Of a stretch of 62,071 nt of DNA, positions 2,394-30,087 are shown piece by piece. The position numbers were made by a program, and so were the translations under genes. The notes under the pieces are model-generated. The model saw only the letters and a program-made list of their open reading frames with translations, ran no database searches and had not been told where the DNA came from. How positions within the stretch are numbered: the stretch's first letter is position 1; each line of letters opens with the position of its first letter. Source of the DNA: a virus (Duplodnaviria; Caudoviricetes); IMG/VR virus record IMGVR_UViG_3300025000_000102, positions 1 to 62,071 of that record; one strand, written 5' to 3'.

Positions 2394-3656
2394 GTGAATC
2401 TAATCCAAAGAGCAAAGCTCTTATTCAATAACGGCTACTTCGAAGAATACGTCCGCAGATTCCAAGCGGGCGAAGACATGCCGGAAAGCGGTCACTCAGG
2501 CGTAGGGTCTGACACCGCCATGAAATATTCGGCGGTTTTTGCATGCTGTCGAGTCCTCGGGGAGACGTTCGCAAGCATGCCGGCCATGGAATACCGCAAG
2601 AGTCCTAACGGAGATAGGGAAACAACAAGAGACACAGCCGCCTTCGACATCCTACACAATGCTCCAAATGCTGAAATGGCACCGTTTAGTTTTAAGGAAT
2701 CCTGCATGATGAACCTAAATCTTGGTGGTAATGCAGTATCAGAGAGGCTTGTTAACAGGTTTGGGGACCTAGTGGGCCTGTATCCCTACAAATGGCAAAT
2801 GGTAGACATCGGCAGAGATTTGGAGACCAAGCAGCTCGTCTACACGGTGACAGATGGAGCAACACAGAAGAAGCTAAGACGAGATCAAGTATTTCATGTC
2901 CCTGGACTAAGTTTTGACGGGATTATTGGTCTATCTCCCATAGAGTACGCAGCAAATGCGATTACGCTGGGTAAGAGTTATGAGCAGTTTGGTGTTAACT
3001 TTTACAAAAACGGTGCGAACTCTTCCGGCGCGTTCAGCTTCCCTGGTGAGCTTGGGGAAGAATCGTTTCAAAGACTAAAGAAGGACCTGAAGGATAACTA
3101 TGCAGGCCTGAAAAACACAGGTACACCGATGTTGCTCGAAGGTGGCGGAGAGTTTAAGCAGTTTGCCATGAAACCTGCTGACGCCCAACTAATCGAGAAC
3201 AAGCGGTTCCAGGTCGAAGATGTTGCTCGGATGTATCGCACTCCGTTGCACTTGATCGGAGACTTGACTAGGTCCACGAATAACAATATTGAGCATCAAA
3301 GCTTAGAGTTTGTGATGTATACCATGTTGCCTTGGTTTAAGCGCTGGGAAGAGAACATCAATATGCAGTTACTCGCTCCGTCAGAGCGTAGGGCGGGGTA
3401 TTATATCGAGTTTAACGTTGCTGGTTTATTGCGAGGTGATGCAAAAAGCAGGGCTGAAGCTTATGCGGCAGGTCGCCAATGGGGTTGGCTTAGTGTTAAT
3501 GATATCCGGAAGCTTGAAAATATGCCACACATAGCCAATGGAGACATTTACCTACAACCTAGCAATATGATTGAGGCTGGTAAAGAGGTACAGGAAGCTG
3601 ACAAAAACAAAGGATTAGCAGAGGAAGTTTACAAAATGATTACCGAGAGGGGGTGA
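2394..3656 (+). CDS. HK97-family portal protein
   Basis: SAVFACCRVL, DGIIGLSPI, GWLSVNDIRKLEN motifs; follows terL. Confidence 0.95.
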   Translation: MNLIQRAKLLFNNGYFEEYVRRFQAGEDMPESGHSGVGSDTAMKYSAVFACCRVLGETFASMPAMEYRKSPNGDRETTRDTAAFDILHNAPNAEMAPFSFKESCMMNLNLGGNAVSERLVNRFGDLVGLYPYKWQMVDIGRDLETKQLVYTVTDGATQKKLRRDQVFHVPGLSFDGIIGLSPIEYAANAITLGKSYEQFGVNFYKNGANSSGAFSFPGELGEESFQRLKKDLKDNYAGLKNTGTPMLLEGGGEFKQFAMKPADAQLIENKRFQVEDVARMYRTPLHLIGDLTRSTNNNIEHQSLEFVMYTMLPWFKRWEENINMQLLAPSERRAGYYIEFNVAGLLRGDAKSRAEAYAAGRQWGWLSVNDIRKLENMPHIANGDIYLQPSNMIEAGKEVQEADKNKGLAEEVYKMITERG

Positions 3657-4465: not shown

Positions 4466-5771
4466 GGAAATGCTCAAAGCCAAACTAGCCGAACAAGAGG
4501 CTCTAATCAATAAGGCGATCACCGAAAACAGGGCCATGACGCCAGAGGAACAGGCCGCAAACGATGCATTGGAGATCGAAATCACGAACCTTGAGAAAAC
4601 AATCCTTGCACAGGCTGCAATGGAAGCAAGAATTGCCGCGAACAAGGAACCAGTCAACGAACCTCTCTACGCACAACCTAAGTCCGCATCCAGCGTAACC
4701 GATATCACCCGTGAAATCTTCGGTAGTGTAGGTGGGTACTTCCAAGCGGTCCATAAATCCAAGAATGAGTCTGAATATGGAGAGAAATTGGCTAAATTGA
4801 ACACCGAAGTGCTTAAGGTTTCTAATGCGGCAGGAATGAATGAGTCAACCCCTGCTGATGGCGGTGTGTTAGTAGGAACTGATGTCTCGACTGTTTTGCT
4901 AGAAAAAGCCTACGAAACAGGAAAGCTTGTCAGTAGGGCGTTTAAGTTGAAGATTAGTCAGGGATCTAATTCTACGTCCATCTTAGCCGCAGACGATAGT
5001 AGCCGGGTAAGTGGGAGTAGATATGGAGGAGTTACTGCGTATTGGCAGGGGGAAGCTGAAAAAATGCTTGCCTCAAAGCTAAAGCACAGCACCATAGATC
5101 TAAAACTAAAAAATCTTAATGCATTAATCTATGTCACAAATGACAATCTTGAAGACGCATCCCAGTTGGAGTCTATAATCATGAAAAGATTCCCGGAAGA
5201 ATTTGGGTTTAAGTTGGACGAATCAATAATAAATGGCACTGGAGCCGGTATGCCTCTTGGTATTAGTAAGTCTGGTTCGTTAGTTGAAGTACCAAAGGAA
5301 GTTGGTCAAGTGGCAAAAACTATTTTGGCGGAAAACATCATCAAAATGTACGCAAGATTTGACGGAAATCCATCAACCTCTGTATGGGTAGTCAATCGCG
5401 ATACCCTCCCTCAAATTGTCACCATGAGCATTGCAATCGGCACTGGCGGAGTGCTTGTCTATATGCCTCCAACGGGGATCGCGGGGAATATCTACGGAAC
5501 ACTATTCGGAATACCAGTTATACCCATTGAGCAGTGTGAAACTCTCGGAACATCCGGTGACATCATGCTGGTCGATATGAGTCAATATGCCATGGCGGAC
5601 AAAGGTTCCTTGAAAACGGCTGCTTCTATGCACGTACGTTTTGAGTACAACGAGATGGCCTTCCGATTCACTTATCGCGCAGATGGACAACCACTTAAAA
5701 CTAAGGCAACCACTCCGTTTCGAGGCGCCGACACCGTATCTCCCTTTGTAACTCTAGCAACACGCGGCTAG
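4455..5771 (+). CDS. Major capsid protein (HK97 fold, N-terminal coiled delta domain)
   Basis: DGGVLV, INGTGAGMPLGI, TLFGIPV, FRFTYRADG motifs; position after protease. Confidence 0.93.
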   Translation: MNFKEMLKAKLAEQEALINKAITENRAMTPEEQAANDALEIEITNLEKTILAQAAMEARIAANKEPVNEPLYAQPKSASSVTDITREIFGSVGGYFQAVHKSKNESEYGEKLAKLNTEVLKVSNAAGMNESTPADGGVLVGTDVSTVLLEKAYETGKLVSRAFKLKISQGSNSTSILAADDSSRVSGSRYGGVTAYWQGEAEKMLASKLKHSTIDLKLKNLNALIYVTNDNLEDASQLESIIMKRFPEEFGFKLDESIINGTGAGMPLGISKSGSLVEVPKEVGQVAKTILAENIIKMYARFDGNPSTSVWVVNRDTLPQIVTMSIAIGTGGVLVYMPPTGIAGNIYGTLFGIPVIPIEQCETLGTSGDIMLVDMSQYAMADKGSLKTAASMHVRFEYNEMAFRFTYRADGQPLKTKATTPFRGADTVSPFVTLATRG

Positions 5772-5788
5772 GATAATTAGCGAACAGA

Positions 5789-5810
5789 AAGGAGCCAATC
5801 ACGGCTCCTT
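5789..5810 (+). terminator. Stem-loop after capsid gene (weak terminator or stabiliser)
   Basis: AAGGAGCC-AATCAC-GGCTCCTT inverted repeat, short U tract. Confidence 0.5.
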
Positions 5811-5836
5811 AATCTAAAATTGGAGGGATAACCACA

Positions 5837-6298
5837 ATGAAACGATACAACCATGTAGTCAATGCCTTGGTACCCGTTGCTGATGCATTCACGGGCACAA
5901 AATACACCGATGTGATCAATATGAAGAACTGGAATCATATCCAATTCGTGATTCAGAAAGCCGCCGGAGCAGTAGGAACAGCAACAATCACAGTCGAAGC
6001 GTGCGACGATGTTGTACCTACAAATGTGAGTGCAGTGCCTTTTAAATACCAGAAATGCACGACAGGAGATACCTTTGGAGCATTAACAACCGTTGAAGCA
6101 ACAGGCTTTGCCACCACAGCCGGAGCCAATCAGATGTACAAGATCGAGGTTGATTCCGATGCCCTGGTAGTGTCTGGATACAGCTACATTCGCCTAAAGT
6201 CCGTAGAGGTCGTTGACGATCCGGTCCTTGGGGGAATCCTCGCTGTACTAACGGAGCCGCGATACAGCAACGAAGTAGCTGATACCACAATCGTCTAA
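5837..6298 (+). CDS. Virion protein, possible head decoration
   Basis: Strong RBS, beta-rich sequence, directly after capsid gene. Confidence 0.55.
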   Translation: MKRYNHVVNALVPVADAFTGTKYTDVINMKNWNHIQFVIQKAAGAVGTATITVEACDDVVPTNVSAVPFKYQKCTTGDTFGALTTVEATGFATTAGANQMYKIEVDSDALVVSGYSYIRLKSVEVVDDPVLGGILAVLTEPRYSNEVADTTIV

Positions 6299-6320
6299 AG
6301 AGAGTGGAAGGAGAAATAAT

Positions 6321-6815
6321 ATGCCAGCAGTAAATATAGGGTGCAAATGGGTCGCAGGAATTATGCACTTTTTCAATAAAGCAACCGGGGATACTGTACT
6401 TAGTGTTAACCCTGCAGGTGACGTCGAACTCGGAACATCCCAATTCCTTAAAAACTCAGTCTTCACGGTCACAATTCCTGAAGTCGCGGCAGCTGACATT
6501 GCGAAAACGTTTTTCGTCGCTCCTGCTGCCTGTGAAACTATAGCGGCAAGCGAGCGGCATGTAACTGTTGCGGGTCAGGCAGGGACGTTGCAAATTGAGA
6601 AACTAAATACAGGTGAAGCCCCTGGAGCCGGTGATGTAATCTTAGCTGCAGCCTTCGATCTTACTAGTGTTGCAAACACGACCGTTACTAAAGTAGCTGT
6701 AGCGGATGGCAAGGAGCAATTAGTAGCCGGCGATGCGCTCTGTCTTAAACTAGCAAGTGGGAATGCGGCGAGTTACGCATTGGGCACAATTACCGTCACA
6801 ATGAAATGGCTATAA
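6321..6815 (+). CDS. Virion protein, possible head fibre/decoration
   Basis: RBS, Ala/Thr/Val-rich beta sequence, head module position. Confidence 0.5.
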   Translation: MPAVNIGCKWVAGIMHFFNKATGDTVLSVNPAGDVELGTSQFLKNSVFTVTIPEVAAADIAKTFFVAPAACETIAASERHVTVAGQAGTLQIEKLNTGEAPGAGDVILAAAFDLTSVANTTVTKVAVADGKEQLVAGDALCLKLASGNAASYALGTITVTMKWL

Positions 6816-6831
6816 GCCTGGGGGTGATGGT

Positions 6832-7422
6832 ATGAATCTAGTCTTAAAAACCCCTCCATCCATTGAACCCCTTACGCTCGCGGAAATCAAAGAATACCTA
6901 CGACTCGACGCTGACGACACATCCGAAGATAGCGACCTGACGGCATATCTAACGGCAGCCCGGGAATATTGCGAAACGTTCCAGAACCGAGCTTATATTA
7001 CCCAGACATGGGGGTTAAGCTTTGATTCATGGCCCTGCAGTGTGATTGAGTTGCCGAAAGGTAGTTTACAAACGGTTGATGCTGTGAGTTATAAAGAATC
7101 GGACGGAGTCACAACGGAGTTAGCGGAGAATACGGACTACGTGTACAGTACGCGCGGCATACTCGGGAGACTTACCCCAGCTTATGGGAAATCATGGCCG
7201 TCGTTCACACCATTTCCCCTCGATGCTGTGGTAATTGAGTTTACTTGCGGCTATGGCGACGAGGCCGCGAGTATACCAGCAAAGGTTATACACGCAATCA
7301 AGCTACTTATTAGCCACTGGTACGAACACAGAACACCTCTTTCAGAGACAAATCAGGCCCCTGAAGAAATAGCGTTTACGGTATCCTCGTTATTGTGGCA
7401 AAATCGCATAATGAATGCGTAG
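6832..7422 (+). CDS. Head-tail connector (gp6-like adaptor)
   Basis: EPLTLAEIKEYLR...AIKLLISHWYEHR signature. Confidence 0.9.
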   Translation: MNLVLKTPPSIEPLTLAEIKEYLRLDADDTSEDSDLTAYLTAAREYCETFQNRAYITQTWGLSFDSWPCSVIELPKGSLQTVDAVSYKESDGVTTELAENTDYVYSTRGILGRLTPAYGKSWPSFTPFPLDAVVIEFTCGYGDEAASIPAKVIHAIKLLISHWYEHRTPLSETNQAPEEIAFTVSSLLWQNRIMNA

Positions 7423-7433
7423 GTGGTATTGAT

Positions 7434-7754
7434 ATGGATCCTGGGAAACTAAGGCATAAAGTTACTATTCAGCAACAAGGTGAGTCCACTAAGGACGGCT
7501 ATGGTGCTCTGGTAGAGAACTGGACAGACGTTAAAACTGTTCGCGCATCCGTCGAACCCCTATCCGGTCGAGAGTTATTCGCGGCCCAACAAGTCCATTC
7601 CGAAACAACAACGCGTATCGCAATAAGGTATCGCGCTGGAATAGCGTCGAAGATGCGCGTTGTGTATGGCACTCGGATATACGATATCTTAGCCCCAATC
7701 GACCCCGAAGAACGACACCGGGAACTCCGTCTGATGTGTAAGGAGTTGATTTAA
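7434..7754 (+). CDS. Head closure / head-tail adaptor (SPP1 gp16-like)
   Basis: GKLRHKVTIQ...W..V..V.A.V.PLSGRE...IRYR. Confidence 0.9.
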   Translation: MDPGKLRHKVTIQQQGESTKDGYGALVENWTDVKTVRASVEPLSGRELFAAQQVHSETTTRIAIRYRAGIASKMRVVYGTRIYDILAPIDPEERHRELRLMCKELI

Positions 7755-22293: not shown

Positions 22294-22552
22294 TATCGAT
22301 CCCTTCCTTTCAAATATAATAATTTCAGCTTAGTATGGGATTTTCCTGCAACTCGACAGGATTAATGGTTTTGCGATAAGTTTTGCAATGATCGTTAACT
22401 TGGTCGTTGACTTGATCGTTACCTTAGTCGCTCAAACGACCACTGTACAAGCTAAAAACCGCATAAATCAAGCAAATATTTTCGGAAAGAGAGGGTAAGG
22501 GGGAGAGGATTAAAGGATTCCAAAGGGACAAGGAGTGGGGATGGGGGAGATT

Positions 22553-23134
22553 TTAAAAATAATTCGCGGGATCGACGCTTGTGCCGTTTTTCCTTATCTC
22601 AAAATGGAGGTGCGGTCCAGTTGAGTTACCAGTATTTCCACATGCCCCAATCTTAGTCCCCGCAATCACCTGGTAGCCAATCTTTACATACAATCCGCTT
22701 AGATGACCATAAAGGGATTCCATTCCCCCTCCGTGATCAACGACGATCATGTTTCCGTAGACATCACTCCATCCTACATTAACAACTTCCCCCTTCCTCG
22801 CAGCTCCCACAGGTGTTCCCTCGGGTGCTGCTATATCCATGCCGTGATGATCGTTTCTCTTAAATTCCTGAGACACAGTCCCTTTCATCGGCATCGTCCA
22901 TCCGCCTTGGCCAATACCTGCCACCCTGTTCGCTGTGTCCTGCAGGGAATCAACTCGCGCAGACCATCTCTCGATCACCGGGGTCAAATTCTGCATGGTA
23001 GTTAATAATACCAACATAGCAGCAACCATAATAACTAAGTTGGCGATCTGCTTGCGCTCAACCCCAATAAGAATAGAATACCCAACGAACGAAACAACGG
23101 CAATAAGTAGGAGATCGGCAATCCACTTTGCCAT
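22553..23134 (-). CDS. M23 (LytM) peptidase with SpoIIIAC/AD-like N-terminal 2-TM hairpin
   Basis: HHGMDIA, YGHLS, GNSTGPHLHFE zinc motifs; two N-terminal TM helices. Confidence 0.85.
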   Translation of the reverse strand: MAKWIADLLLIAVVSFVGYSILIGVERKQIANLVIMVAAMLVLLTTMQNLTPVIERWSARVDSLQDTANRVAGIGQGGWTMPMKGTVSQEFKRNDHHGMDIAAPEGTPVGAARKGEVVNVGWSDVYGNMIVVDHGGGMESLYGHLSGLYVKIGYQVIAGTKIGACGNTGNSTGPHLHFEIRKNGTSVDPANYF

Positions 23135-23137
23135 AAT

Positions 23138-23374
23138 TCACATCTTCCCAACGGTGAAGTCGAAAAACTTCGTAAGTAATTGCCAAGCTACCGATATAAC
23201 ACACAGGATAGCTGCAATCGTTGTCGCCGTTTTGATCATGGCTGAAATATGGCCCTTACCAATTGCGCCAGTGATCATCTCTGCAAGCCAAGATCCAACT
23301 CCCAGCATGACGAGGATTAAAATAACGAATCCTGGGGAACTAGGCCCGAATGCTGCGCCGGCTGCTGTTACCAT
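23138..23374 (-). CDS. Small 2-TM protein, SpoIIIAC/AD-like
   Basis: 78 aa; helix-GK-helix pattern resembling SpoIIIAC; AAGGAGG RBS. Confidence 0.55.
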   Translation of the reverse strand: MVTAAGAAFGPSSPGFVILILVMLGVGSWLAEMITGAIGKGHISAMIKTATTIAAILCVISVAWQLLTKFFDFTVGKM

Positions 23375-24017
23375 TTAGACATTCCTCCTTTATTCGTTGC
23401 AGGCTAAACACTTGAAACTCAAGGTTGTTGACGTTTTCCTTGGCGATCTTCTTCTGGATGGCATCGATTCTCCCTGTAGTCACAACACGGATCACAGGGA
23501 ATCGCTTAGTCAGTGGAACCCACCACATTTTCAGATACTCTCCAGATGCGTAGAACTCGTTGTAACGCCTGACCTTTTCGCCGAAATCGTGACCTGATTC
23601 CGCTATGTCAAACTCGGCGTAGAAAAACGAGAATGAGCTAGACCAAGTATTCTTGACACATATGAGGGCATCAGGCCTAAGGGTTTTATAAACCACTTCA
23701 CGCTCAAAACTGTGTAGGACCATTGCCGTAGAGAGCGAGGAGTTTACCCACGTATAAATCCACGAGACTCCCAAAACGTGCTCCAATTGACCTGGTTTCT
23801 TGTTGGCATAGTAATAGTATGGTTCGTCGATTGAGAGCCTTGAACGCTTTATTCTGCCTGTCTCTGTGAGTTTTTTTAATCTGCGCTGAACGATGCGAAG
23901 ACAAGTATCGTGGAATAACAGGAGTTTAATTTGATCGGTATTTAACGCGCTTTGAGTCTCCAATAGCCTGAATAACTCCTTATCGCGGTGGGAGCATTTT
24001 GCGTGATTGCTCAACAA
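23340..24017 (-). CDS. Replication-relaxation (Replic_Relax) family protein
   Basis: N-terminal winged helix (LNTDQI...RRLKKL), EH.L, RPDAL, FYAEFD...K...Y; downstream of FtsK. Confidence 0.75.
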   Translation of the reverse strand: MLSNHAKCSHRDKELFRLLETQSALNTDQIKLLLFHDTCLRIVQRRLKKLTETGRIKRSRLSIDEPYYYYANKKPGQLEHVLGVSWIYTWVNSSLSTAMVLHSFEREVVYKTLRPDALICVKNTWSSSFSFFYAEFDIAESGHDFGEKVRRYNEFYASGEYLKMWWVPLTKRFPVIRVVTTGRIDAIQKKIAKENVNNLEFQVFSLQRIKEECLNGNSSRRSIRA

Positions 24018-25107
24018 GGTTCATCACCTCGACTCGGTCAATATCTCTGAGTAATTTCCTAGCCTGTTTAATAGGTAGGTACATACCCTGCGTCTCAAGT
24101 TCGTTATCCCATTGATAGATTCCCCTGCCCGGGATAGAAGGGATGAGCGCGGCGTTTTCGTTATCTAGGAGCATCCTAGAGTTGATACCATCTCGGACGT
24201 GAAAACACATAGTGCCCGCGAACATCGCCTTACTGTCTCCGAACGCCTTCATCATGGTGCTGGAAGGCCTTTGAGTAGCGCATACTACACAGATTCCAGC
24301 GGCTCTACCGAGGCGTAGGATGCGATTTAAGGACGTTTGGCATTCCTCGTCGTGCATTTCTGCCAACTCATCAATTACGATCACTAGGAAGGGCATTTCG
24401 TGCCCCTGTTCGATATAATCTTGGATCTTAACGCATCCCTTAGATTCTAAGATATTTAGTCTTTTGTCGAGGTCTTTATTGATCGCATCGAATACGATGG
24501 GGGCTTTATCCTGATCTGTTACGAGCAGTACATGGTCCTTGAGGTATGAGTATTCTAGACGTTTAAAGTCGAAAACAACAGTACGAATCTCAGTTTTCTT
24601 ATTCAGTAATAACCCCATGATTAATCCGTGGATAAAATTACTCTTCCCGGCTCCCGGATGTCCGGCAATGATAAGATTCGGCATATCCGCAAGATCCTTG
24701 ACGACTTCCCCAATAGCTGAATGACCGAAGTGGATCGGGAGATATCCCTTGTGCTGAGATGGATCGAAAGAGTATGGGTATTCGCGCTTAATCTCCGTTG
24801 TTGACGCTTGCATAGTGATCACCTTACCTCTCTTCTCGACTTGCACTGTGCCACCCATGGCATCGGCAAAGAGTTGTTCCTTAGCCTTAAACTCCTTATA
24901 TCCGAGTCCTGGACCGAGGGATAGGATGAATCGGTAGGCTTCGCCTGTGAGTTTGATTTTCTTCAGGATCTTTGGCTTGGGATCTTTCGGCCATATCGCG
25001 TCGATAACGTCTTGTACTGCTGCATGGGCATCATTTCCTTTGCGATGCAGGAATAGGTATTTTAGTTGGTCGCGGACTTCTTCGATGACGTTTTGCTTTG
25101 CGGGCAT
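23980..25107 (-). CDS. FtsK/SpoIIIE-family ATPase (no TM domain)
   Basis: Walker A AGHPGAGKS, FDFK, Walker B IVIDELAE, GRAAGI..V.ATQRPS, IPGRG. Confidence 0.92.
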   Translation of the reverse strand: MPAKQNVIEEVRDQLKYLFLHRKGNDAHAAVQDVIDAIWPKDPKPKILKKIKLTGEAYRFILSLGPGLGYKEFKAKEQLFADAMGGTVQVEKRGKVITMQASTTEIKREYPYSFDPSQHKGYLPIHFGHSAIGEVVKDLADMPNLIIAGHPGAGKSNFIHGLIMGLLLNKKTEIRTVVFDFKRLEYSYLKDHVLLVTDQDKAPIVFDAINKDLDKRLNILESKGCVKIQDYIEQGHEMPFLVIVIDELAEMHDEECQTSLNRILRLGRAAGICVVCATQRPSSTMMKAFGDSKAMFAGTMCFHVRDGINSRMLLDNENAALIPSIPGRGIYQWDNELETQGMYLPIKQARKLLRDIDRVEVMNLVEQSRKMLPPR

Positions 25108-25111
25108 TGGT

Positions 25112-25357
25112 TCATCCTCCTTTCATGTCCTGCATCAACTCTCGAGCTATGAGTCGCGCATCGGCTGGGGTGATGGTCTGTGGCCTGCTGATGATGCCAT
25201 TGGTTCCCAACGCACCCATCTCAACCAACTTCAGCCGAACCCCATCCCGGACCATATCAGCCATTTCTCCTTCCTCAAGTTTTAAGTCGCGTACGGCTTG
25301 CTTAATGTCTTTGTCTCGCTTACGTAGTCTTGCCTTAAGGATTGTTATGTCGCTCAT
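25112..25357 (-). CDS. Small RHH-like protein heading FtsK operon
   Basis: AGGAGG RBS; beta-alpha-alpha pattern (ILKARLR...MADMVRDGVR). Confidence 0.55.
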   Translation of the reverse strand: MSDITILKARLRKRDKDIKQAVRDLKLEEGEMADMVRDGVRLKLVEMGALGTNGIISRPQTITPADARLIARELMQDMKGG

Positions 25358-25499
25358 GTGTGTACCTCCTGTGCTACATGTGTAATCTGTTGTGACTCAA
25401 GAGGGTTCTGCCTGTGTCACAAATTACCTGTTGTATATATATTTGCGATTACGGATAATATTCGTAAACACAGATCAAAATAACAAAAAAAGTTCCCCC

Positions 25500-25688
25500 T
25501 TAGTAGGGGAACAAATAGTCCATTGTTTTTCCAAGGGCTTTGGCTAATCGTTGTGCTACAGGAATCGAAAGATTAGGTTTGAGATCATTTTCTATCAGAC
25601 TAATTTCAGCCTGTCTTACCTTTGTTATTTTTGAGAGTTCACGCTGGGTAAGGCCTCTTTGTAGTCTAACTTCTCGAACTCTATTCAT
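25500..25688 (-). CDS. XRE-family HTH regulator
   Basis: NRVREVR..RGLTQRELS...ISLIEN...LAKALG. Confidence 0.88.
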   Translation of the reverse strand: MNRVREVRLQRGLTQRELSKITKVRQAEISLIENDLKPNLSIPVAQRLAKALGKTMDYLFPY

Positions 25689-25708
25689 ATTATCACCACA
25701 GGTAAATT

Positions 25709-25736
25709 ATTCCACATCGGTGTTTAGTTTTCCTTC
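25709..25736 (-). promoter_or_regulatory. Sigma-H-type promoter
   Basis: GAAGGAAAA-12-GTGGAAT on minus strand matches RNAGGAWWW-N11/12-RNNGAAT. Confidence 0.6.
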
Positions 25737-25749
25737 ATGGATTCAACTT

Positions 25750-25950
25750 TTAATACGGCCAAAGGAAATCCATACTTTTGCCCAAGGCTTTAGCAATTTT
25801 CTGAGCGGTTGTAATCTGGACGTTCCTTTGGCCGCTTATGATTTCACTAAGATATGATTGCTTAATGCCAGTAAGTTTATGTAGATCATCTTGCGTAATG
25901 CGCTTTAGCCACATAACTTCTTGAATCCTATTTTTTAACAACTTCATCAC
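25750..25950 (-). CDS. XRE-family HTH regulator (paralog of 25500-25688)
   Basis: ITQDDL...GIKQSYLSEI...IAKALGKSMDFLWPY. Confidence 0.85.
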   Translation of the reverse strand: MMKLLKNRIQEVMWLKRITQDDLHKLTGIKQSYLSEIISGQRNVQITTAQKIAKALGKSMDFLWPY

Positions 25951-26138: not shown

Positions 26139-26354
26139 ATGTATGACAGCATGGAAATGGGCAGAAATATAGCGAACTATCGTAAAATGAAAAGATTGAC
26201 GCAGTTAGAATTAGCCAAGGCTATCGGGATGAGCAGGGGGCACATAGTTGCAATTGAGAGAGGAAGAAGGATACCTAGAATTAAGACATTAGCTAGGATA
26301 GCGGAATGCCTTGAAGTGGAATTGGAAGTACTTTTAAGAGAGGGGTTGAAATAA
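26139..26354 (+). CDS. XRE-family HTH regulator
   Basis: LTQLELAKAIGMSRGHIVAIERG...P....L..IA..L.V. Confidence 0.88.
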   Translation: MYDSMEMGRNIANYRKMKRLTQLELAKAIGMSRGHIVAIERGRRIPRIKTLARIAECLEVELEVLLREGLK

Positions 26355-27128: not shown

Positions 27129-28847
27129 CTATATAATAGGGTCTGTATCAGTAGTGCTTAATCTCGGCAATCTCCACGCTGGAAGCGCTTCCTTCTTAAT
27201 ATAAACCATTCCTAAGTTATAAACTGCACGCTTGTCCGTGTGGATCACAACTTGGGAGAAAGTATACTCGATTGAAACAGTTGCGGATGGGCCTGTACCA
27301 ACGGACGACGTGTTTACGACAACCCTTCGAACGAGCATCTTGACAATGTCTCGCTTTTCTTCCCAAGGTATATCATCGTGGATTCTCAAGCGCAACTGAT
27401 TAAGCAACTCCGTGATCCCAATAAACTTATCTTCCATAACTTCTTCTGTTTGTATATTTTGGCTCAATTCCGTAAAACGATTTGCCAACTGCATCGCTTC
27501 GTCGGCGATCTTTTTTAATTGTTGCTCTACGTCGACAGAGTTAATAAGGTTTTTCCTAAAGAGATCGAGAATGGAATGTTTCTCGGTCTCTTTTTGTTTC
27601 AGAGCCTTGCTTATAATTTCTTTCTCATCGGAAAATTGATCAAGATTAGACTTGCTTTTCACGGAATCCTTTTTTAAGGTTTCCAATACTTCCTCTGGAT
27701 CATTCACGAAACGAATGATATCGGACCAAACAAGATTCTCAACCCAATCCTGTGGAATATTCTTAGATTTACACTTACCCATATCTGGGCCATTGTAGGC
27801 GAGTTTTCCGTTGCAAACATAATACCCTTTGAGCACTCCTCCAGGTCCATTGTAAAATGTTCCGCAGTAATTTAGTCCACAGGAGCCACATTTAACTAGA
27901 CTACGAAGCAGGTATTTACGTTTGGCATTCCTCATTGCTCCAATCTGGTTTTCGTGGAGAACTTCTTGGGCCCGTTCCCAAACGTCGACGTCGACAATCG
28001 AAGGAAACTTACGAGAAATAATTTCGCGTTGTTTCTTGGACCTTCTACCGTATTCGTGGATTCCTTTATAAGTCGTGTTGACGATCATCCCACGAACTCG
28101 TCCAGGCCTCCAAATTCCGGCGGTATTTTCTTTACGCTTACCCTTATCTATCTGACGGCCATCCTTGGTGTAAGAAGGCGGTACACCCAAAGAATTAAGA
28201 TAGTCTGCAATCTTCTTCGTGCTCATATGTTCTTCAACTGTGAGCCGATAAACCATGCTAACAACTTCTACCTCAGACATATAAAATCCCCTCATGGGTT
28301 CGATTGAGGGAATAAGATATGCATCTTCTTTTAGGTACCCAAACGGAACAATTCCGCCTAGCCATTTTCCTTCACGCGCAGCGCGGTTTGCTCCGTTCCA
28401 TAAGCGATCAAGGGTCGAAGAACGGTCTAGGTCAGCCACCCCAGCTAGGATAGTGACAAGGAACCTACCGCTCGGATCGCCGGTATCGAAAGGCTCTGTC
28501 AAACTACGCAACTTAACTCCGCACTCCTCTAGCTCATGAATCGCGTTTAGGATAACCCTTGCAGTTCTCCCTAATCGATCGAGTCGATAAATGAGAACAA
28601 GATTAAACTTACCCATTTTTGCATCTTCAATGAGCCTAAGTCCACTTTCACGATCTTCGAGGGGGATTGTACCTGTTACGCCATCATCAAGATACCATTC
28701 ATTAATTGTTAATTCGTGTAAGTCACAATACTTAGTACCGAATTCGATTTGATTTTGTATTGTGCCCCTTTCGGCTTGATCCTCGGAAGACACCCGGCCA
28801 TAGCCGACTGCTTTTGATTCAAGTTTTTGATCATTAAAATTAAACAT
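27129..28847 (-). CDS. int: Large serine recombinase (integrase)
   Basis: YGRVSS catalytic Ser, YRLDRLGR, GGIVPFGY recombinase domain, zinc ribbon KCGSCG...YYVC, coiled coil. Confidence 0.95.
   Translation of the reverse strand: MFNFNDQKLESKAVGYGRVSSEDQAERGTIQNQIEFGTKYCDLHELTINEWYLDDGVTGTIPLEDRESGLRLIEDAKMGKFNLVLIYRLDRLGRTARVILNAIHELEECGVKLRSLTEPFDTGDPSGRFLVTILAGVADLDRSSTLDRLWNGANRAAREGKWLGGIVPFGYLKEDAYLIPSIEPMRGFYMSEVEVVSMVYRLTVEEHMSTKKIADYLNSLGVPPSYTKDGRQIDKGKRKENTAGIWRPGRVRGMIVNTTYKGIHEYGRRSKKQREIISRKFPSIVDVDVWERAQEVLHENQIGAMRNAKRKYLLRSLVKCGSCGLNYCGTFYNGPGGVLKGYYVCNGKLAYNGPDMGKCKSKNIPQDWVENLVWSDIIRFVNDPEEVLETLKKDSVKSKSNLDQFSDEKEIISKALKQKETEKHSILDLFRKNLINSVDVEQQLKKIADEAMQLANRFTELSQNIQTEEVMEDKFIGITELLNQLRLRIHDDIPWEEKRDIVKMLVRRVVVNTSSVGTGPSATVSIEYTFSQVVIHTDKRAVYNLGMVYIKKEALPAWRLPRLSTTDTDPII
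27209..27258. other. Putative attP (imperfect 22-bp inverted repeat around CTTGTC) inside integrase 3' end
   Basis: TTCCTAAGTTATAAACTGCACG-CTTGTC-CGTGTGGATCACAACTTGGGAG; 15/22 arm positions complementary. Confidence 0.6.
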
Positions 28848-28867
28848 ACTATCCCCTCCTAAAAAAC

Positions 28868-28909
28868 AGAAAGTCTGTTCTTATTAATCACAAACCGAAC
28901 ATATGTTCA
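28868..28909. promoter_or_regulatory. Tandem LexA boxes upstream of integrase
   Basis: CGAAC-ATAT-GTTCA at 28896-28909 and GAAA-GTCT-GTTC at 28869-28880. Confidence 0.65.
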
Positions 28910-29389
28910 GCAAAAAGGGTAAAAAAAATTACAGTTCGTATCTTTAATTCTTTTTAAATTGGCTAACTTTTGAGGGACACCGCACGCTGTAGCTATTTCT
29001 TGAATAGTACGAGCTCTGTTTTCGCCTGCGCAGACAATGCAATCAGGCATGAGTAATTCGACTGCAAATTGATTGGCTTCTCGTTCAATTCTGCCCACAG
29101 AGAAGAGTGTGTTTGCTCTTAAAAATGGGGTATTAGCTTTTGGATGCAAAATATTATGACCTAGCTCATGGGCACAAACAAAGCGTTGCCAAACGTTGCT
29201 AAGTTCATAGTTGATGTGTATGAAGGATATACGTTTATAGGTGCTATGGTAACCGAGCGTACTCCCTAGTGGTTCCCTTATGATGAGAATGCCTTTACAA
29301 TCAGCAATTTCATAAGGGTCATCGGTACGATATTTCTTAATTAGCCTTGATACTATCTCTGAAATCCTGTCCAAATGCAAGACCTCCAT
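28907..29389 (-). CDS. ImmA/IrrE-family metallopeptidase (anti-repressor)
   Basis: RF.CAHELGH HExxH motif, EREANQFAVELLMP. Confidence 0.92.
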   Translation of the reverse strand: MEVLHLDRISEIVSRLIKKYRTDDPYEIADCKGILIIREPLGSTLGYHSTYKRISFIHINYELSNVWQRFVCAHELGHNILHPKANTPFLRANTLFSVGRIEREANQFAVELLMPDCIVCAGENRARTIQEIATACGVPQKLANLKRIKDTNCNFFYPFC

Positions 29390-29397
29390 AAAAAGCG

Positions 29398-30087
29398 TTA
29401 TTTATACTTTTCAGGGGTGAACTTTTTCTTGGCGAGTTGTTTAGCAAGACGCATTGAATTTTCGAGGGAGATGCGCATAAGTTCTTTAGTTTCATCATCT
29501 AAAGGTTCTCCGTCAAATGCGAGGGCCTCGTTACTTTCAAGACTAGAGAGCATTTTCTCTAAGTCTCTGGCGATATCGCGTTCTTCTTTTGGCGCGAGGT
29601 TGTTGGGGATGATTTTTTTTTCTTCAAAGGAGGTGTCTTTGAAATCCTCTCCCATATCGGCAATGGTACGATATCCTGCAATCCTTAATAGTATGCCGCG
29701 GTCTAATTCCCTTTGAGGTATGAAATCTATGGTATTGCTTGCTATTCTTTCAAGTGTCTCTAATGATGGGCGCTCAAGAATTAGCCCTAAGCAAATTTTA
29801 TCTAACTCGTTAACATCCACGCCGGTATCCATGGAGAATTTTTCAATTGATCTTTCGCCCCTAATTGAGTTGATAAAAGATACAAGAAAAGTTCGCTCAA
29901 AACCTAAGAGTAAATACTCCGTTGATACTTTAAAATAGTCCGCAACTTTTTGGAGTTTATCAATAGAAGGTGAATTTTTGTCCCATTTATAAATGGCGCC
30001 TTTGCCGAATTCCAAGTCCTTTTCAAGCTTAGGCACGGTAGTATTATGATCCCTACATAGGAACTGTATATTTAACACTATCGACAT
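29398..30087 (-). CDS. Prophage repressor (XRE, two HTH-like domains)
   Basis: LEKDL.F..G.I.KW...SPSIDKLQKVADYF.VS.EYLL; C-terminal KKKFTP.KY typical of ImmR-like repressors; divergent from Cro. Confidence 0.88.
   Translation of the reverse strand: MSIVLNIQFLCRDHNTTVPKLEKDLEFGKGAIYKWDKNSPSIDKLQKVADYFKVSTEYLLLGFERTFLVSFINSIRGERSIEKFSMDTGVDVNELDKICLGLILERPSLETLERIASNTIDFIPQRELDRGILLRIAGYRTIADMGEDFKDTSFEEKKIIPNNLAPKEERDIARDLEKMLSSLESNEALAFDGEPLDDETKELMRISLENSMRLAKQLAKKKFTPEKYK

What the first reader, a model, noticed from the sequence alone, without database searches (positions are those of the whole stretch)
22553..25357. Phage operon resembling a sporulation-linked DNA-transfer machine (FtsK/SpoIIIE + relaxase-like + SpoIIIAC/AD-like + M23)
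Seen: five tightly coupled minus-strand genes encoding an RHH-like protein, a soluble FtsK/SpoIIIE ATPase, a Replic_Relax-type protein, a 78-aa 2-TM protein, and an M23 peptidase with intact zinc motifs whose N-terminus is a second similar 2-TM hairpin. Known: FtsK + replication-relaxation pairs occur in Bacillus temperate phages with no established function; SpoIIIAC/AD are small membrane parts of the mother cell-forespore SpoIIIA-SpoIIQ channel, and SpoIIQ is an M23/LytM protein. Inference: the phage carries a nicking enzyme, DNA pump, channel-like subunits and a peptidoglycan hydrolase that could move phage DNA across the sporulation septum (spore entrapment) or between cells without virions.
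Basis: partly seen in the sequence, partly recalled or inferred. Interest (0 to 1): 0.85.

Follow-up and report, generated by a model that had tools for sequence, protein, structure and literature searches.

The report
Phage DNA-pump cassette with membrane hairpins
A temperate phage of the spore-forming bacterium Desulfosporosinus carries an extended version of a known but functionally untested phage cassette: a DNA-cutting protein, a DNA pump, two small membrane proteins and a cell-wall-cutting enzyme, next to the DNA site they probably act on.

Summary
The five minus-strand genes are real. Four assignments hold: a soluble FtsK-type ATPase, a Replic_Relax protein, a 78-aa 2-TM protein and a 2-TM+M23 peptidase. 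"RHH-like" for the first gene was not confirmed.

The core (MOBC-type relaxase homologue, TM-less FtsK-like ATPase, separate membrane anchor) is already in print as the phage "DNA translocation operon" (Pathria 2012, PMC3357382). Its function is untested. This scan has noted it at least 8 times on other DNA, once in a Desulfosporosinus phage.

What this lineage adds:
- Two hairpin proteins that are paralogues at profile level (84%).
- Sub-threshold, register-consistent similarity of both to SpoIIIAC/AD.
- A true PF06686 protein in the equivalent cassette of plasmid pMU3262.
- An M23 domain, present in the window and 8 of 11 related loci.
- A conserved downstream site: a pyrimidine tract plus 12-bp repeats whose core changes together with the Replic_Relax winged-helix segment.

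Best reading: a cis-acting, membrane-associated cassette that nicks and pumps the phage's own DNA. The destination (forespore, neighbouring cell or daughter cell) is unknown. This is a new variant of a known kind.

The parts
25112..25357 (-). 81-aa soluble protein, first gene of the operon; fold unknown (RHH not shown)
   Evidence: ORF. Homologues lie upstream of the ATPase in 6 of 11 related loci. No Pfam match. AF2 model is helical, pLDDT 70.
23980..25107 (-). Soluble FtsK/SpoIIIE/TcpA-like ATPase (Walker A GHPGAGKS, Walker B VIVIDE read from the translation)
   Evidence: PF01580 E 8.5e-19. phrog_1358 E 1.1e-52. Closest solved chains: FtsK 2iuu 5.6e-18 and 6o1w 'DNA translocase coupling protein' 8.9e-15 over residues 92-334. 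No TM segment.
23340..24017 (-). Replic_Relax / MOBC-type protein: N-terminal winged helix plus PD-(D/E)XK nuclease-fold domain
   Evidence: PF13814 E 1.5e-10. AF2 pLDDT 88.9. VIA Z 8.4 to nickase N.BspD6I and 7.3 to FokI over 1-207; wHTH rows Z 6-7. Foldseek FokI E 1.4e-3, prob 0.98.
23138..23374 (-). 78-aa 2-TM hairpin protein (tm78)
   Evidence: TM segments 8-26 and 45-63. 39 close homologues. 59 relatives at E<=1e-3 in 1.84 billion representatives. Some relatives carry signal-peptide-like leaders.
22553..23134 (-). 2-TM hairpin (residues 1-~60) fused to an M23 metallopeptidase
   Evidence: PF01551 E 3.2e-35. TM segments 5-23 and 29-47. HHGMD and HLH motifs. The hairpin is a profile-level paralogue of tm78.
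22481..22552 (-). Pyrimidine-rich tract directly after the last stop codon (79% C+T on the operon strand)
   Evidence: Counted (33 C, 24 T, 11 A, 4 G of 72). By eye, a similar tract is present in the related loci printed.
22389..22450 (-). Array of 12-bp direct repeats (core AACGAYCA) plus one inverted copy; candidate binding site of the Replic_Relax winged helix
   Evidence: TRF: period 12, 3.1 copies, 22389-22425. 4 of the window's 8 AACGAYCA sites lie in 22389-22442. The array is conserved, and its core changes together with the wHTH segment.
25492..25512 (-). Terminator-like hairpin plus T-run between the upstream XRE gene and the operon
   Evidence: 8 pairs, 5 G-C, T7. It implies the operon has its own promoter in about 25358-25490, which the sigma-70 scan did not find on this strand.
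25500..25950 (-). Two paralogous XRE-type regulator genes upstream, co-conserved with the cassette
   Evidence: ORFs. tblastn matches upstream of the cassette in 6 of 11 related loci (L002, L004, L005, L007, L008, L009).

Best explanation
This is a lineage-specific, extended form of the phage 'DNA translocation operon' of Bacillota phages.

Proposed mechanism.
1. The Replic_Relax protein binds, through its N-terminal winged helix, the array of 12-bp repeats just downstream of the operon. This is inferred from co-variation.
2. It cuts or nicks nearby, perhaps in or next to the pyrimidine tract, with its restriction-endonuclease-fold domain. The fold is shown; the activity is inferred by analogy with MOBC relaxases such as pAD1 TraX.
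3. The TM-less FtsK/TcpA-like ATPase is held at the membrane by one or both hairpin proteins and pumps the processed phage DNA. This is inferred.
4. The hairpin proteins have a predicted N-out/C-out topology. That places the M23 peptidase outside the membrane, where it can open peptidoglycan locally. This is inferred from the topology and the intact zinc motifs.

The cassette therefore acts in cis on the phage's own genome. The compartment the DNA is sent to is not shown. The candidates are the forespore, a neighbouring cell, or a daughter cell across a closing septum.
For: Protein identities.
- Domain matches.
- wHTH plus type-IIS-like nuclease or nickase fold of Replic_Relax, pLDDT 88.9.
- PF13814 is the MOBC relaxase family. 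Its prototype TraX has an N-terminal winged helix, a restriction-endonuclease-type active site, and binds five direct repeats 70-120 bp from nic (passages read in PMC5357655 and PMC12857230).
- The motor is closest to FtsK and to a solved 'DNA translocase coupling protein'.

Conservation.
- Same gene order in 11 of 11 related Desulfosporosinus/Bacillota loci.
- Small membrane protein + TM-less FtsK + Replic_Relax also in Geobacillus phage GBSV1, Bacillus phages phiCM3 and 268TH007, a 16-kb B. weihaiensis plasmid, Thermoanaerobacterium plasmid pMU3262, and Clostridium phages c-st and LPCPA58.

Cis site.
- The downstream non-coding block is conserved.
- Read: 9 loci have CGAYCA/CGACTA repeat cores with helix LRIVQRRL. 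2 loci (L007, L011) have GGACCA cores with HT[TA]RRRL. 1 locus (L012) has CGAA-type cores on the other strand with LRMAQGRL.
- L007 and L011 are each other's nearest in the wHTH segment (73%) but not in the rest of the protein (61%, against 77% and 81% to others).
- The 8-mer is clustered locally and is not enriched across the genome: 8 found against 4.24 +/- 2.32 expected, 4 of them within 54 bp.

Prior description of the same logic (relaxase, TM-less coupling ATPase, separate anchors): Pathria 2012, abstract and sections 7, 9 and 15 read.
Against: - No activity, localisation or expression data exist for this cassette.
- No sigma-70-like promoter was found for it on its strand.
- The M23 domain is absent in 3 of 11 relatives, so wall cutting is not essential to the core function.
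- Deleting the homologous operon in phage 0305phi8-36 gave no laboratory phenotype.
- MOBC relaxases normally feed a type IV secretion system, and the operon holds none.
- Iteron-like repeats next to a 'replication-relaxation' protein fit a replication origin equally well.
- The co-variation rests on three specificity classes among 12 related loci, and I read it by eye.
Confidence: 0.55

Rival explanations
1. Episome replication and segregation module. Replic_Relax is a replication initiator acting on the 12-bp iterons, and the FtsK-like ATPase clears or segregates phage episomes. The cassette serves a plasmid-like or post-excision state of the prophage rather than export.
For: - The cassette sits on plasmids and plasmid-prophages: the 16-kb B. 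weihaiensis plasmid with no annotated Rep, pMU3262, phage c-st, and RBClin15 as described in PMC11526630 (passage read).
- PHROG labels are 'replication initiation (by nicking)'.
- The Novomoskovsk paper files these proteins with plasmid replication and segregation (passages read).
- Tandem repeats lie beside the gene.
Against: - This phage has a serine integrase and its own primase/helicase module.
- Two conserved membrane hairpins and an extracytoplasmic M23 peptidase have no role in replication.
- The PHROG label derives from the family name, not from a test.
Confidence: 0.2
2. Forespore delivery. The cassette docks to or mimics SpoIIIA-channel membrane parts and pumps phage DNA from the mother cell into the forespore, so that the phage is carried in spores.
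For: - Sub-threshold SpoIIIAC/AD similarity of both hairpins.
- A true PF06686 gene in the pMU3262 cassette.
- Every verified cassette I saw is from an endospore-forming lineage: Desulfosporosinus, Bacillus, Geobacillus, Cytobacillus, Clostridium, Thermoanaerobacterium.
- Hits labelled Listeria, Staphylococcus or gut phages that I opened were cell-type FtsK or EssC-size genes without Replic_Relax.
- Other agents of this scan report sporulation-type promoters before such cassettes (not tested here).
Against: - No PF06686 match reaches the cut-off.
- The M23 domain is not SpoIIQ-like in particular.
- An integrated prophage reaches the spore with the chromosome anyway.
- The host range may simply follow phylogeny and sampling. 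Single-query tblastn is insensitive: the window's own protein found no phage record.
- Two records carry non-spore-former labels, SpaA1 and Stenotrophomonas TS-12. At the query-identity level shown they are indistinguishable from Bacillus phage rows.
Confidence: 0.15
3. Prophage-encoded defence or superinfection exclusion. A membrane-tethered ATPase and nuclease intercept incoming foreign DNA.
For: - The cassette lies in the accessory region between the lysis genes and the integrase, beside other small membrane and lipoprotein genes.
- ATPase plus PD-(D/E)XK nuclease pairs are common in defence systems.
- There are weak fold rows to HamA and Can2.
Against: - PADLOC gives only generic FtsK/HerA-type ATPase hits and nothing for the other four proteins.
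- The conserved adjacent repeat site that co-varies with the DNA-binding segment points to action on the element's own DNA.
Confidence: 0.07

Closest known systems
Phage 'DNA translocation operon' (Pathria et al. 2012, PMC3357382: 0305phi8-36 orf200/201/203/207; SPO1; GBSV1; Gamma/Wbeta group)
   Same: A MOBC-related relaxase homologue next to a TM-less FtsK-like coupling ATPase, with membrane association supplied by separate proteins. It is phage-borne and lies near integration genes in temperate members. GBSV1 shares the FtsK and Replic_Relax pair with the window by direct search.
   Different: - Here the anchors are two paralogous 2-TM hairpins downstream of the nuclease, not VirB6- or MreB-like proteins or an upstream hairpin.
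- One hairpin is fused to an M23 peptidase.
- The window's Replic_Relax is too diverged to hit any phage record by tblastn.
MOBC relaxases (pAD1 TraX, CloDF13 MobC) with their coupling proteins
   Same: PF13814 membership, an N-terminal winged helix, a restriction-endonuclease-type domain, and direct repeats near the gene as the likely binding site.
   Different: No type IV secretion genes are in the operon. The partner ATPase is FtsK/TcpA-like rather than VirD4-like. Nicking is not shown.
TcpA-type / FtsK-like coupling proteins of Bacillota conjugative elements (solved chain 6o1w) and FtsK motor domains (2iuu)
   Same: The motor domain aligns over residues 92-334 at E 8.9e-15, and to FtsK at E 5.6e-18.
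   Different: There are no N-terminal TM segments. No C-terminal DNA-recognition domain was seen, because the protein ends soon after the motor.
SpoIIIAC/SpoIIIAD (PF06686) of the SpoIIIA-SpoIIQ channel
   Same: A hairpin of about 65 aa with two TM helices and a short basic loop. Profile similarity lies in the same register. A true family member sits in the pMU3262 cassette.
   Different: Scores are below the family cut-off (14.1 bits against 24). The conserved glycines of SpoIIIAC are not kept in the hairpin family. The genes are not in a spoIIIA operon. The three host-genus genomes searched (G001-G003) carry their spoIIIA genes elsewhere.
Streptomyces TraB / actinomycete ICE transfer modules
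   Same: An FtsK-like ATPase, small membrane proteins and short direct repeats as the cis site, beside an integrase.
   Different: The NCBIfam TraB model gives 51 bits against a cut-off of 800. TraB is membrane-anchored and reads its own repeats. Here a separate nuclease-fold protein appears to read them.

Membership tests
Phage DNA translocation operon (Pathria 2012) | Relaxase homologue of the MOBC / Replic_Relax family | tested here: met
   PF13814 E 1.5e-10, 41.9 bits against a cut-off of 25.3.
Phage DNA translocation operon (Pathria 2012) | Adjacent FtsK-like coupling ATPase without a transmembrane domain | tested here: met
   PF01580 E 8.5e-19. No hydrophobic segment. The genes overlap.
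Phage DNA translocation operon (Pathria 2012) | Separate membrane-binding protein(s) in the operon | tested here: met
   Two 2-TM proteins directly downstream.
MOBC relaxases (TraX/MobC) | N-terminal winged helix plus PD-(D/E)XK-type catalytic domain | tested here: met
   AF2 model pLDDT 88.9. Residues 1-55 match wHTH chains at Z 6-7. Residues 58-207 match N.BspD6I at Z 8.4, rmsd 3.9, 132 aligned.
MOBC relaxases (TraX/MobC) | Binds direct repeats in an origin of transfer and nicks at a distance | tested here: inconclusive
   The repeat array is adjacent and co-varies with the wHTH segment. Binding and nicking cannot be tested here.
MOBC relaxases (TraX/MobC) | Works with a type IV secretion system or VirD4-type coupling protein | tested here: not met
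   None of the five operon proteins matches VirB4 or VirD4 above cut-off. TrwB_AAD_bind gives 16.9 bits against 20.5. The rest of the window was not scanned for T4SS genes.
SpoIIIAC/SpoIIIAD (PF06686) | Match to the family model above its gathering score | tested here: not met
   Hairpin of the M23 protein: 14.1 bits, E 0.055, in 1 of 11 members. The 78-aa protein has no match. No cassette locus was hit in three host-genus genomes.
SpoIIIAC/SpoIIIAD (PF06686) | Profile-profile similarity over the whole hairpin | tested here: inconclusive
   - Hairpin family versus SpoIIIAC: 57.3% and 67.3%.
- 0 of 200 column shuffles and 0 of 200 segment-wise shuffles reach the score.
- Broad tm78 family versus SpoIIIAC: 18.5%.
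- PF06686 is the top weak family in 7 of 60 tm78 relatives.
- Atlas lead at 0.85.
SpoIIIAC/SpoIIIAD (PF06686) | Encoded in a spoIIIA operon | tested here: not met
   The genes lie in a phage cassette. SpoIIIAC and AD genes of three host-genus genomes lie elsewhere.
SpoIIQ | Match to the SpoIIQ equivalog model | tested here: not met
   NF053738 gives 59.1 bits against a cut-off of 250, below DipM at 81.5 and MepM at 81.1.
FtsK/SpoIIIE proper | N-terminal multi-pass membrane domain | tested here: not met
   No TM segment in 375 aa. The equivalog PRK10263 gives 54.8 bits against 1566.
Peptidase M23 | Family model and zinc-binding HxxxD / HxH motifs | tested here: met
   120.6 bits against 28.7. 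HHGMD at 96 and HLH at 175.
VirB2/TrbC-type pilin | Cleavable leader followed by two hydrophobic helices; family model match | tested here: inconclusive
   Several relatives of the 78-aa protein have leaders ending in Ala-rich sites, but the window's copy has none. No TrbC family appears among the 25 families listed, out of 40, for 60 members.
Ribbon-helix-helix accessory proteins | RHH family match or beta-alpha-alpha fold | tested here: inconclusive
   No Pfam RHH match for the 81-aa protein or for its positional counterparts in L005, L010 and L011. The monomer model is helical at pLDDT 70. A dimer was not modelled.

The most novel reading that the evidence does not exclude
The two hairpin proteins are diverged SpoIIIAC/AD relatives that a phage has recruited, with a wall-cutting M23 domain, an FtsK-type motor and a site-specific nickase. 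Together they form a virus-owned DNA conduit across a septal or intercellular double membrane. Through it the phage loads its own genome into the forespore, or into a neighbouring cell, without a virion. If so, SpoIIIAC/AD-type hairpins would be general conduit subunits rather than sporulation-only parts.
Probability: 0.12. Interest if true: 0.85.

Novelty: new variant of a known kind. Interest (0 to 1): 0.45.

Why it matters
The core cassette is widespread in temperate phages and phage-plasmids of spore-forming Bacillota. It has had no demonstrated function since it was described in 2012.

This variant adds parts that narrow the possibilities:
- membrane hairpins with a possible link to the SpoIIIA channel family;
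- an extracytoplasmic wall hydrolase;
- a defined DNA site whose sequence tracks the DNA-binding segment of the nuclease.

Together they give concrete, cheap experiments: binding and nicking on the repeat site, localisation of the pump, and spore carriage or virion-free transfer after deletion. If the cassette moves phage DNA across membranes, it would be a route of phage persistence or spread that does not need particles.

Tried and rejected
- Whole-region DNA search against phages: no match.
- The window's Replic_Relax by tblastn: no phage record at 1e-3 and no plasmid record at 1e-2.
- PADLOC: only generic ATPase hits, so I did not pursue a named defence system.
- Gut 'Bacteriophage sp.' contigs with PF06686 genes. 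In the 6 of 8 that I fetched, SpoIIIAC stood without FtsK or Replic_Relax, and in 3 of the 6 a weak second PF06686-like ORF followed. I take them for bacterial spoIIIA operons and dropped them.
- Records labelled Listeria, gut or Staphylococcus phages with FtsK hits (4 opened) encode 761-837-aa multi-TM, 432-aa or 1274-aa FtsK-family proteins without Replic_Relax. I dropped them from the host-range argument.
- PF13814 in 301 genomes of the host phylum: 11 genomes matched. Only 2 of the 11 fetched regions had an FtsK-like neighbour by my search. The Pfam model also missed the two cassettes known in G001, so this census is too insensitive to use.
- ESM Atlas: nothing usable for the hairpin of the M23 protein. 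A 0.85 lead to a cluster with PF06686 in 14% of members for the 78-aa protein is used only as a lead.
- Context of distant relatives of the 78-aa protein: cluster look-up gave no names. The metagenome scan returned two unrelated-looking loci. tblastn of one relative against phages gave no match.
- Complex prediction of the ATPase with the 78-aa protein: no answer.
- RNA evidence: no RNA holder listed. I did not lay reads.
- Fold search for the 81-aa protein: no match.
- Literature: 'SpoIIIAC' with 'phage' gave 9 papers, and none is about phage-borne homologues by title (listing only). Francia 2013 on TraX is not held, so what I say of TraX comes from passages in PMC12857230 and PMC5357655.
- Supplements were not opened. 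Supplementary Table S3 of PMC3424549 and the IME tables of PMC5357655 may hold more on Replic_Relax.
- In L002 my simple pattern did not find HxxxD. I did not look further.

Full report
WHAT IS THERE

The window is a 62,071-bp IMG/VR virus record, estimated 86% complete. It encodes:
- large terminase, portal, major head protein, tape measure, holin and endolysin on the plus strand up to about 19.6 kb;
- a CI-like regulator, an ImmA-like metalloprotease and a large serine recombinase on the minus strand at 27.1-30.1 kb;
- replication genes further on.

It is a temperate tailed phage. The finding lies between the lysis genes and the integrase.

All five ORFs are present as stated. Four assignments hold:
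- FtsK_SpoIIIE, E 8.5e-19;
- Replic_Relax, E 1.5e-10;
- Peptidase_M23, E 3.2e-35, with HHGMD and HLH motifs;
- two predicted TM segments in the 78-aa protein and two at the N-terminus of the M23 protein, with none in the ATPase.

The label 'RHH-like' for the 81-aa protein could not be confirmed:
- no relevant Pfam match;
- a helical monomer model of middling confidence;
- no fold match.

A terminator-like hairpin at 25512-25492 separates the upstream XRE genes from the operon. No sigma-70-like promoter was found for the operon on its strand.

HOST AND RELATIVES

Close homologues of the 78-aa protein (39 at E<=0.01) and of Replic_Relax (82) are metagenomic, or are named Desulfosporosinus or Bacillota MAG. 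A scan of species genomes found 7 loci, 6 in Desulfosporosinus and 1 in a Bacillota MAG. A viral scan found 4 more.

All 11 loci keep the order ATPase, Replic_Relax, 78-aa protein, hairpin protein. A homologue of the 81-aa protein was detected upstream in 6 of them. Two loci are cut off upstream, L010 and L011 hold a different small protein there, and L012 holds none that I could find.

In L007, L010 and L011 the last gene encodes only 97-100 aa. It is the same hairpin with a short tail and no M23 domain. The hairpin is therefore core, and the peptidase is an optional addition.

THE CORE IS A KNOWN CASSETTE

The ATPase finds 377 phage records, all below 60% identity and mostly Bacillus.

In GBSV1, phiCM3, 268TH007 and a 16-kb B. 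weihaiensis plasmid the layout is the same: a divergent HTH regulator, a small protein, the FtsK-like gene and a Replic_Relax gene. The small protein ends in a 2-TM hairpin in all four.

A Bacillus-type Replic_Relax query finds 26 phage records:
- 20 Bacillus, 2 Geobacillus and 1 Cytobacillus;
- 2 labelled Staphylococcus SpaA1 and 1 labelled Stenotrophomonas TS-12, with the same identities as Bacillus phage rows.

An FtsK- or segregation-ATPase-type feature is named under the match in all 26 rows but one, where both features are 'hypothetical protein'. A pMU3262-type query finds 4 Clostridium phage records. There the small upstream proteins have one TM segment.

PF13814 is the MOBC relaxase family. 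Its members have the PD-(D/E)XK fold and usually an HTH domain. The prototype TraX has a winged helix and binds five direct repeats 70-120 bp from nic (passages read in PMC3424549, PMC5357655 and PMC12857230).

Pathria et al. 2012 (abstract and sections 7, 9 and 15 read) described exactly this. They found a relaxase family related to CloDF13 MobC, a TM-less coupling ATPase and separate membrane anchors in 0305phi8-36, SPO1, GBSV1 and the Gamma/Wbeta group. They named it a DNA translocation operon, and its deletion caused no laboratory growth defect. Reviews and genome papers only speculate on a sporulation role (passages read).

I reached the Pathria paper through earlier notes of this scan. 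Those notes hold at least 8 findings of this cassette on other DNA, one of them in a Desulfosporosinus phage.

THE NUCLEASE AND ITS SITE

The AF2 model of Replic_Relax is confident (pLDDT 88.9, pTM 0.85).
- Residues 1-55 match winged-helix regulators at Z 6-7.
- Residues 58-207 match the catalytic domain of the site-specific nickase N.BspD6I (Z 8.4), its small subunit (Z 8.2) and other restriction-fold nucleases.
- FokI aligns over both domains (Z 7.3; Foldseek E 1.4e-3, prob 0.98).
- These Z values are in the range the tool calls middling. I use them for the fold class only.

Just after the last stop codon lies a 72-nt tract that is 79% C+T on the operon strand. A conserved block follows it, then an array of 12-bp repeats (TRF period 12, 3.1 copies, 22389-22425) with one inverted copy. 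Four of the window's eight AACGAYCA sites lie within 54 bp there. The whole-window count is not unusual: 8 found against 4.24 +/- 2.32 expected. The site is therefore local and not a dispersed polarity signal.

The whole non-coding block is conserved downstream of the cassette in the related loci. In L012 the tract and the repeats are inverted relative to the genes.

The repeat core differs between loci together with the winged-helix segment of Replic_Relax:
- 9 loci have CGAYCA- or CGACTA-type cores with the helix LRIVQRRL;
- L007 and L011 have GGACCA-type cores with HT[TA]RRRL;
- L012 has CGAA-type cores with LRMAQGRL (read by eye).

L007 and L011 are each other's nearest in that segment (73%) but not in the rest of the protein. 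There they are 61% alike, while their nearest relatives are at 77% and 81%. This mosaic pattern is the best evidence here that the protein reads the repeats. The ATPase does not follow the pattern: L008 has a diverged ATPase at 46% but the common repeat type.

THE HAIRPINS AND SPOIIIAC/AD

By family model the answer is no.
- The 78-aa protein has no Pfam match.
- The N-terminal 75 aa of the M23 protein match PF06686 as their only family, but at E 0.055 (14.1 bits, cut-off 24).
- Only 1 of the 11 family members does so, and DUF485 matches 3 of 11.
- PF06686 did not ring at any cassette locus in three Desulfosporosinus genomes.

By profile comparison there is a consistent weak signal.
- Hairpin family against SpoIIIAC taken from 41 genomes of the host's class: 67% in my script and 57.3%, E 1e-4, over 50 columns in the same register with the tool.
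- None of 200 column shuffles reached the score (max 18.3 against 27.7).
- None of 200 shuffles confined within TM1, loop, TM2 and tail reached it (mean 11.7, sd 2.5, max 19.2 against 26.3).
- The reversed profile scored 16.2.

A profile search with the 78-aa family found 59 relatives at E<=1e-3. Scanned one by one, PF06686 is their commonest weak match, in 7 of 60 with best E 2e-4. The broad profile matches SpoIIIAC at only 18.5%. It matches the M23-protein hairpin at 84.4%, E 7e-6.

So the two hairpins are probably paralogues. Their kinship to SpoIIIAC/AD is possible but unproven.

Independent of all this, plasmid pMU3262 of Thermoanaerobacterium carries a true PF06686 protein (49.8 bits, E 3.9e-13). 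It sits two genes upstream of an FtsK-like and Replic_Relax pair in one co-directional run.

Some relatives of the 78-aa protein have signal-peptide-like leaders. That recalls VirB2-type pilins, a reading another agent of this scan gave on other DNA. No TrbC family was among the 25 families listed, out of 40.

The M23 domain is generic. The SpoIIQ model scores below DipM and MepM and far below its cut-off.

MECHANISM AND ODDS

I commit to a cis-acting cassette that processes and translocates DNA at the membrane (0.55). The proposed steps are:
- Replic_Relax binds the repeats and nicks nearby;
- the soluble motor is held at the membrane by the hairpins;
- the M23 domain, placed outside by the N-out/C-out topology, loosens the wall.

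What is shown:
- the domains and folds;
- the conservation of gene order and of the site;
- the co-variation between repeats and the winged helix.

What is inferred:
- DNA binding and nicking;
- tethering of the motor at the membrane;
- the direction of pumping.

The destination is open. Rival readings and my odds:
- Forespore loading (0.15). It is favoured only by the weak SpoIIIAC link and by the fact that every verified cassette I saw comes from an endospore-forming lineage. That fact may be due to phylogeny and sampling.
- Episome replication and segregation (0.2). It fits the plasmid and plasmid-prophage hosts and the iteron-like repeats, but leaves the hairpins and the peptidase unexplained.
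- Defence (0.07). It is disfavoured by the self-site.

VERDICT

The cassette is a known kind of unknown function, and this is a new variant of it. The paired SpoIIIAC-like hairpins, the M23 fusion and the defined co-varying site make an old open question more testable.

Interest is 0.45.

Noticed in passing
window 22294-22388 (minus strand); same block in L002-L012: Between the repeat array and the next gene lies a block conserved across loci. It ends in GCAGGAAA, followed about 14 nt later by GAA-type bases, which is like a sigma-H -35/-10 pair. After it the cargo differs from locus to locus: a TM2-domain gene here, and lipoprotein or other genes elsewhere.
   Followed up: partly
L012 about 3200-3450: In this most diverged locus the pyrimidine tract and the repeat array are inverted relative to the cassette genes, while the block after them keeps its orientation. 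The site seems to behave as a discrete invertible or recombined unit.
   Followed up: no
L007 8829-9122, L010 8820-9116, L011 8831-9133: Variant last gene of 97-100 aa. It has the same 2-TM hairpin, but the M23 domain is replaced by a short tail with a conserved motif near the end (NSPILNWAPGTG-like).
   Followed up: partly
L017 (pMU3262) 4479-7489 and L080 (phage c-st) 1641-5106: Both elements share the layout: a 'restriction endonuclease' gene on the opposite strand, then a small membrane protein, an FtsK-like gene and a Replic_Relax-like gene. In pMU3262 the small protein is a true PF06686 member.
   Followed up: partly
L059-L064, L076-L079 (GenBank 'UNVERIFIED' phage records): Several short records filed as phages look like bacterial DNA. 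They hold spoIIIAC/AD-type genes, or full-size multi-TM FtsK or EssC-size genes. Host tallies from such records are unreliable.
   Followed up: partly
window 27129-30087 (minus strand): The main lysogeny module is a CI-like regulator (229 aa), an ImmA-like metalloprotease (160 aa) and a 572-aa serine recombinase. It is separate from the cassette's own pair of XRE genes at 25500-25950 and the divergent XRE gene at 26139-26354.
   Followed up: partly
proteins P0128-P0133, P0142, P0146 (relatives of the 78-aa protein): About 100-aa relatives carry an N-terminal hydrophobic leader ending in Ala-rich sites, ahead of the conserved FGxGGPG motif. This suggests that the mature N-terminus lies outside the membrane in this family.
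   Followed up: no
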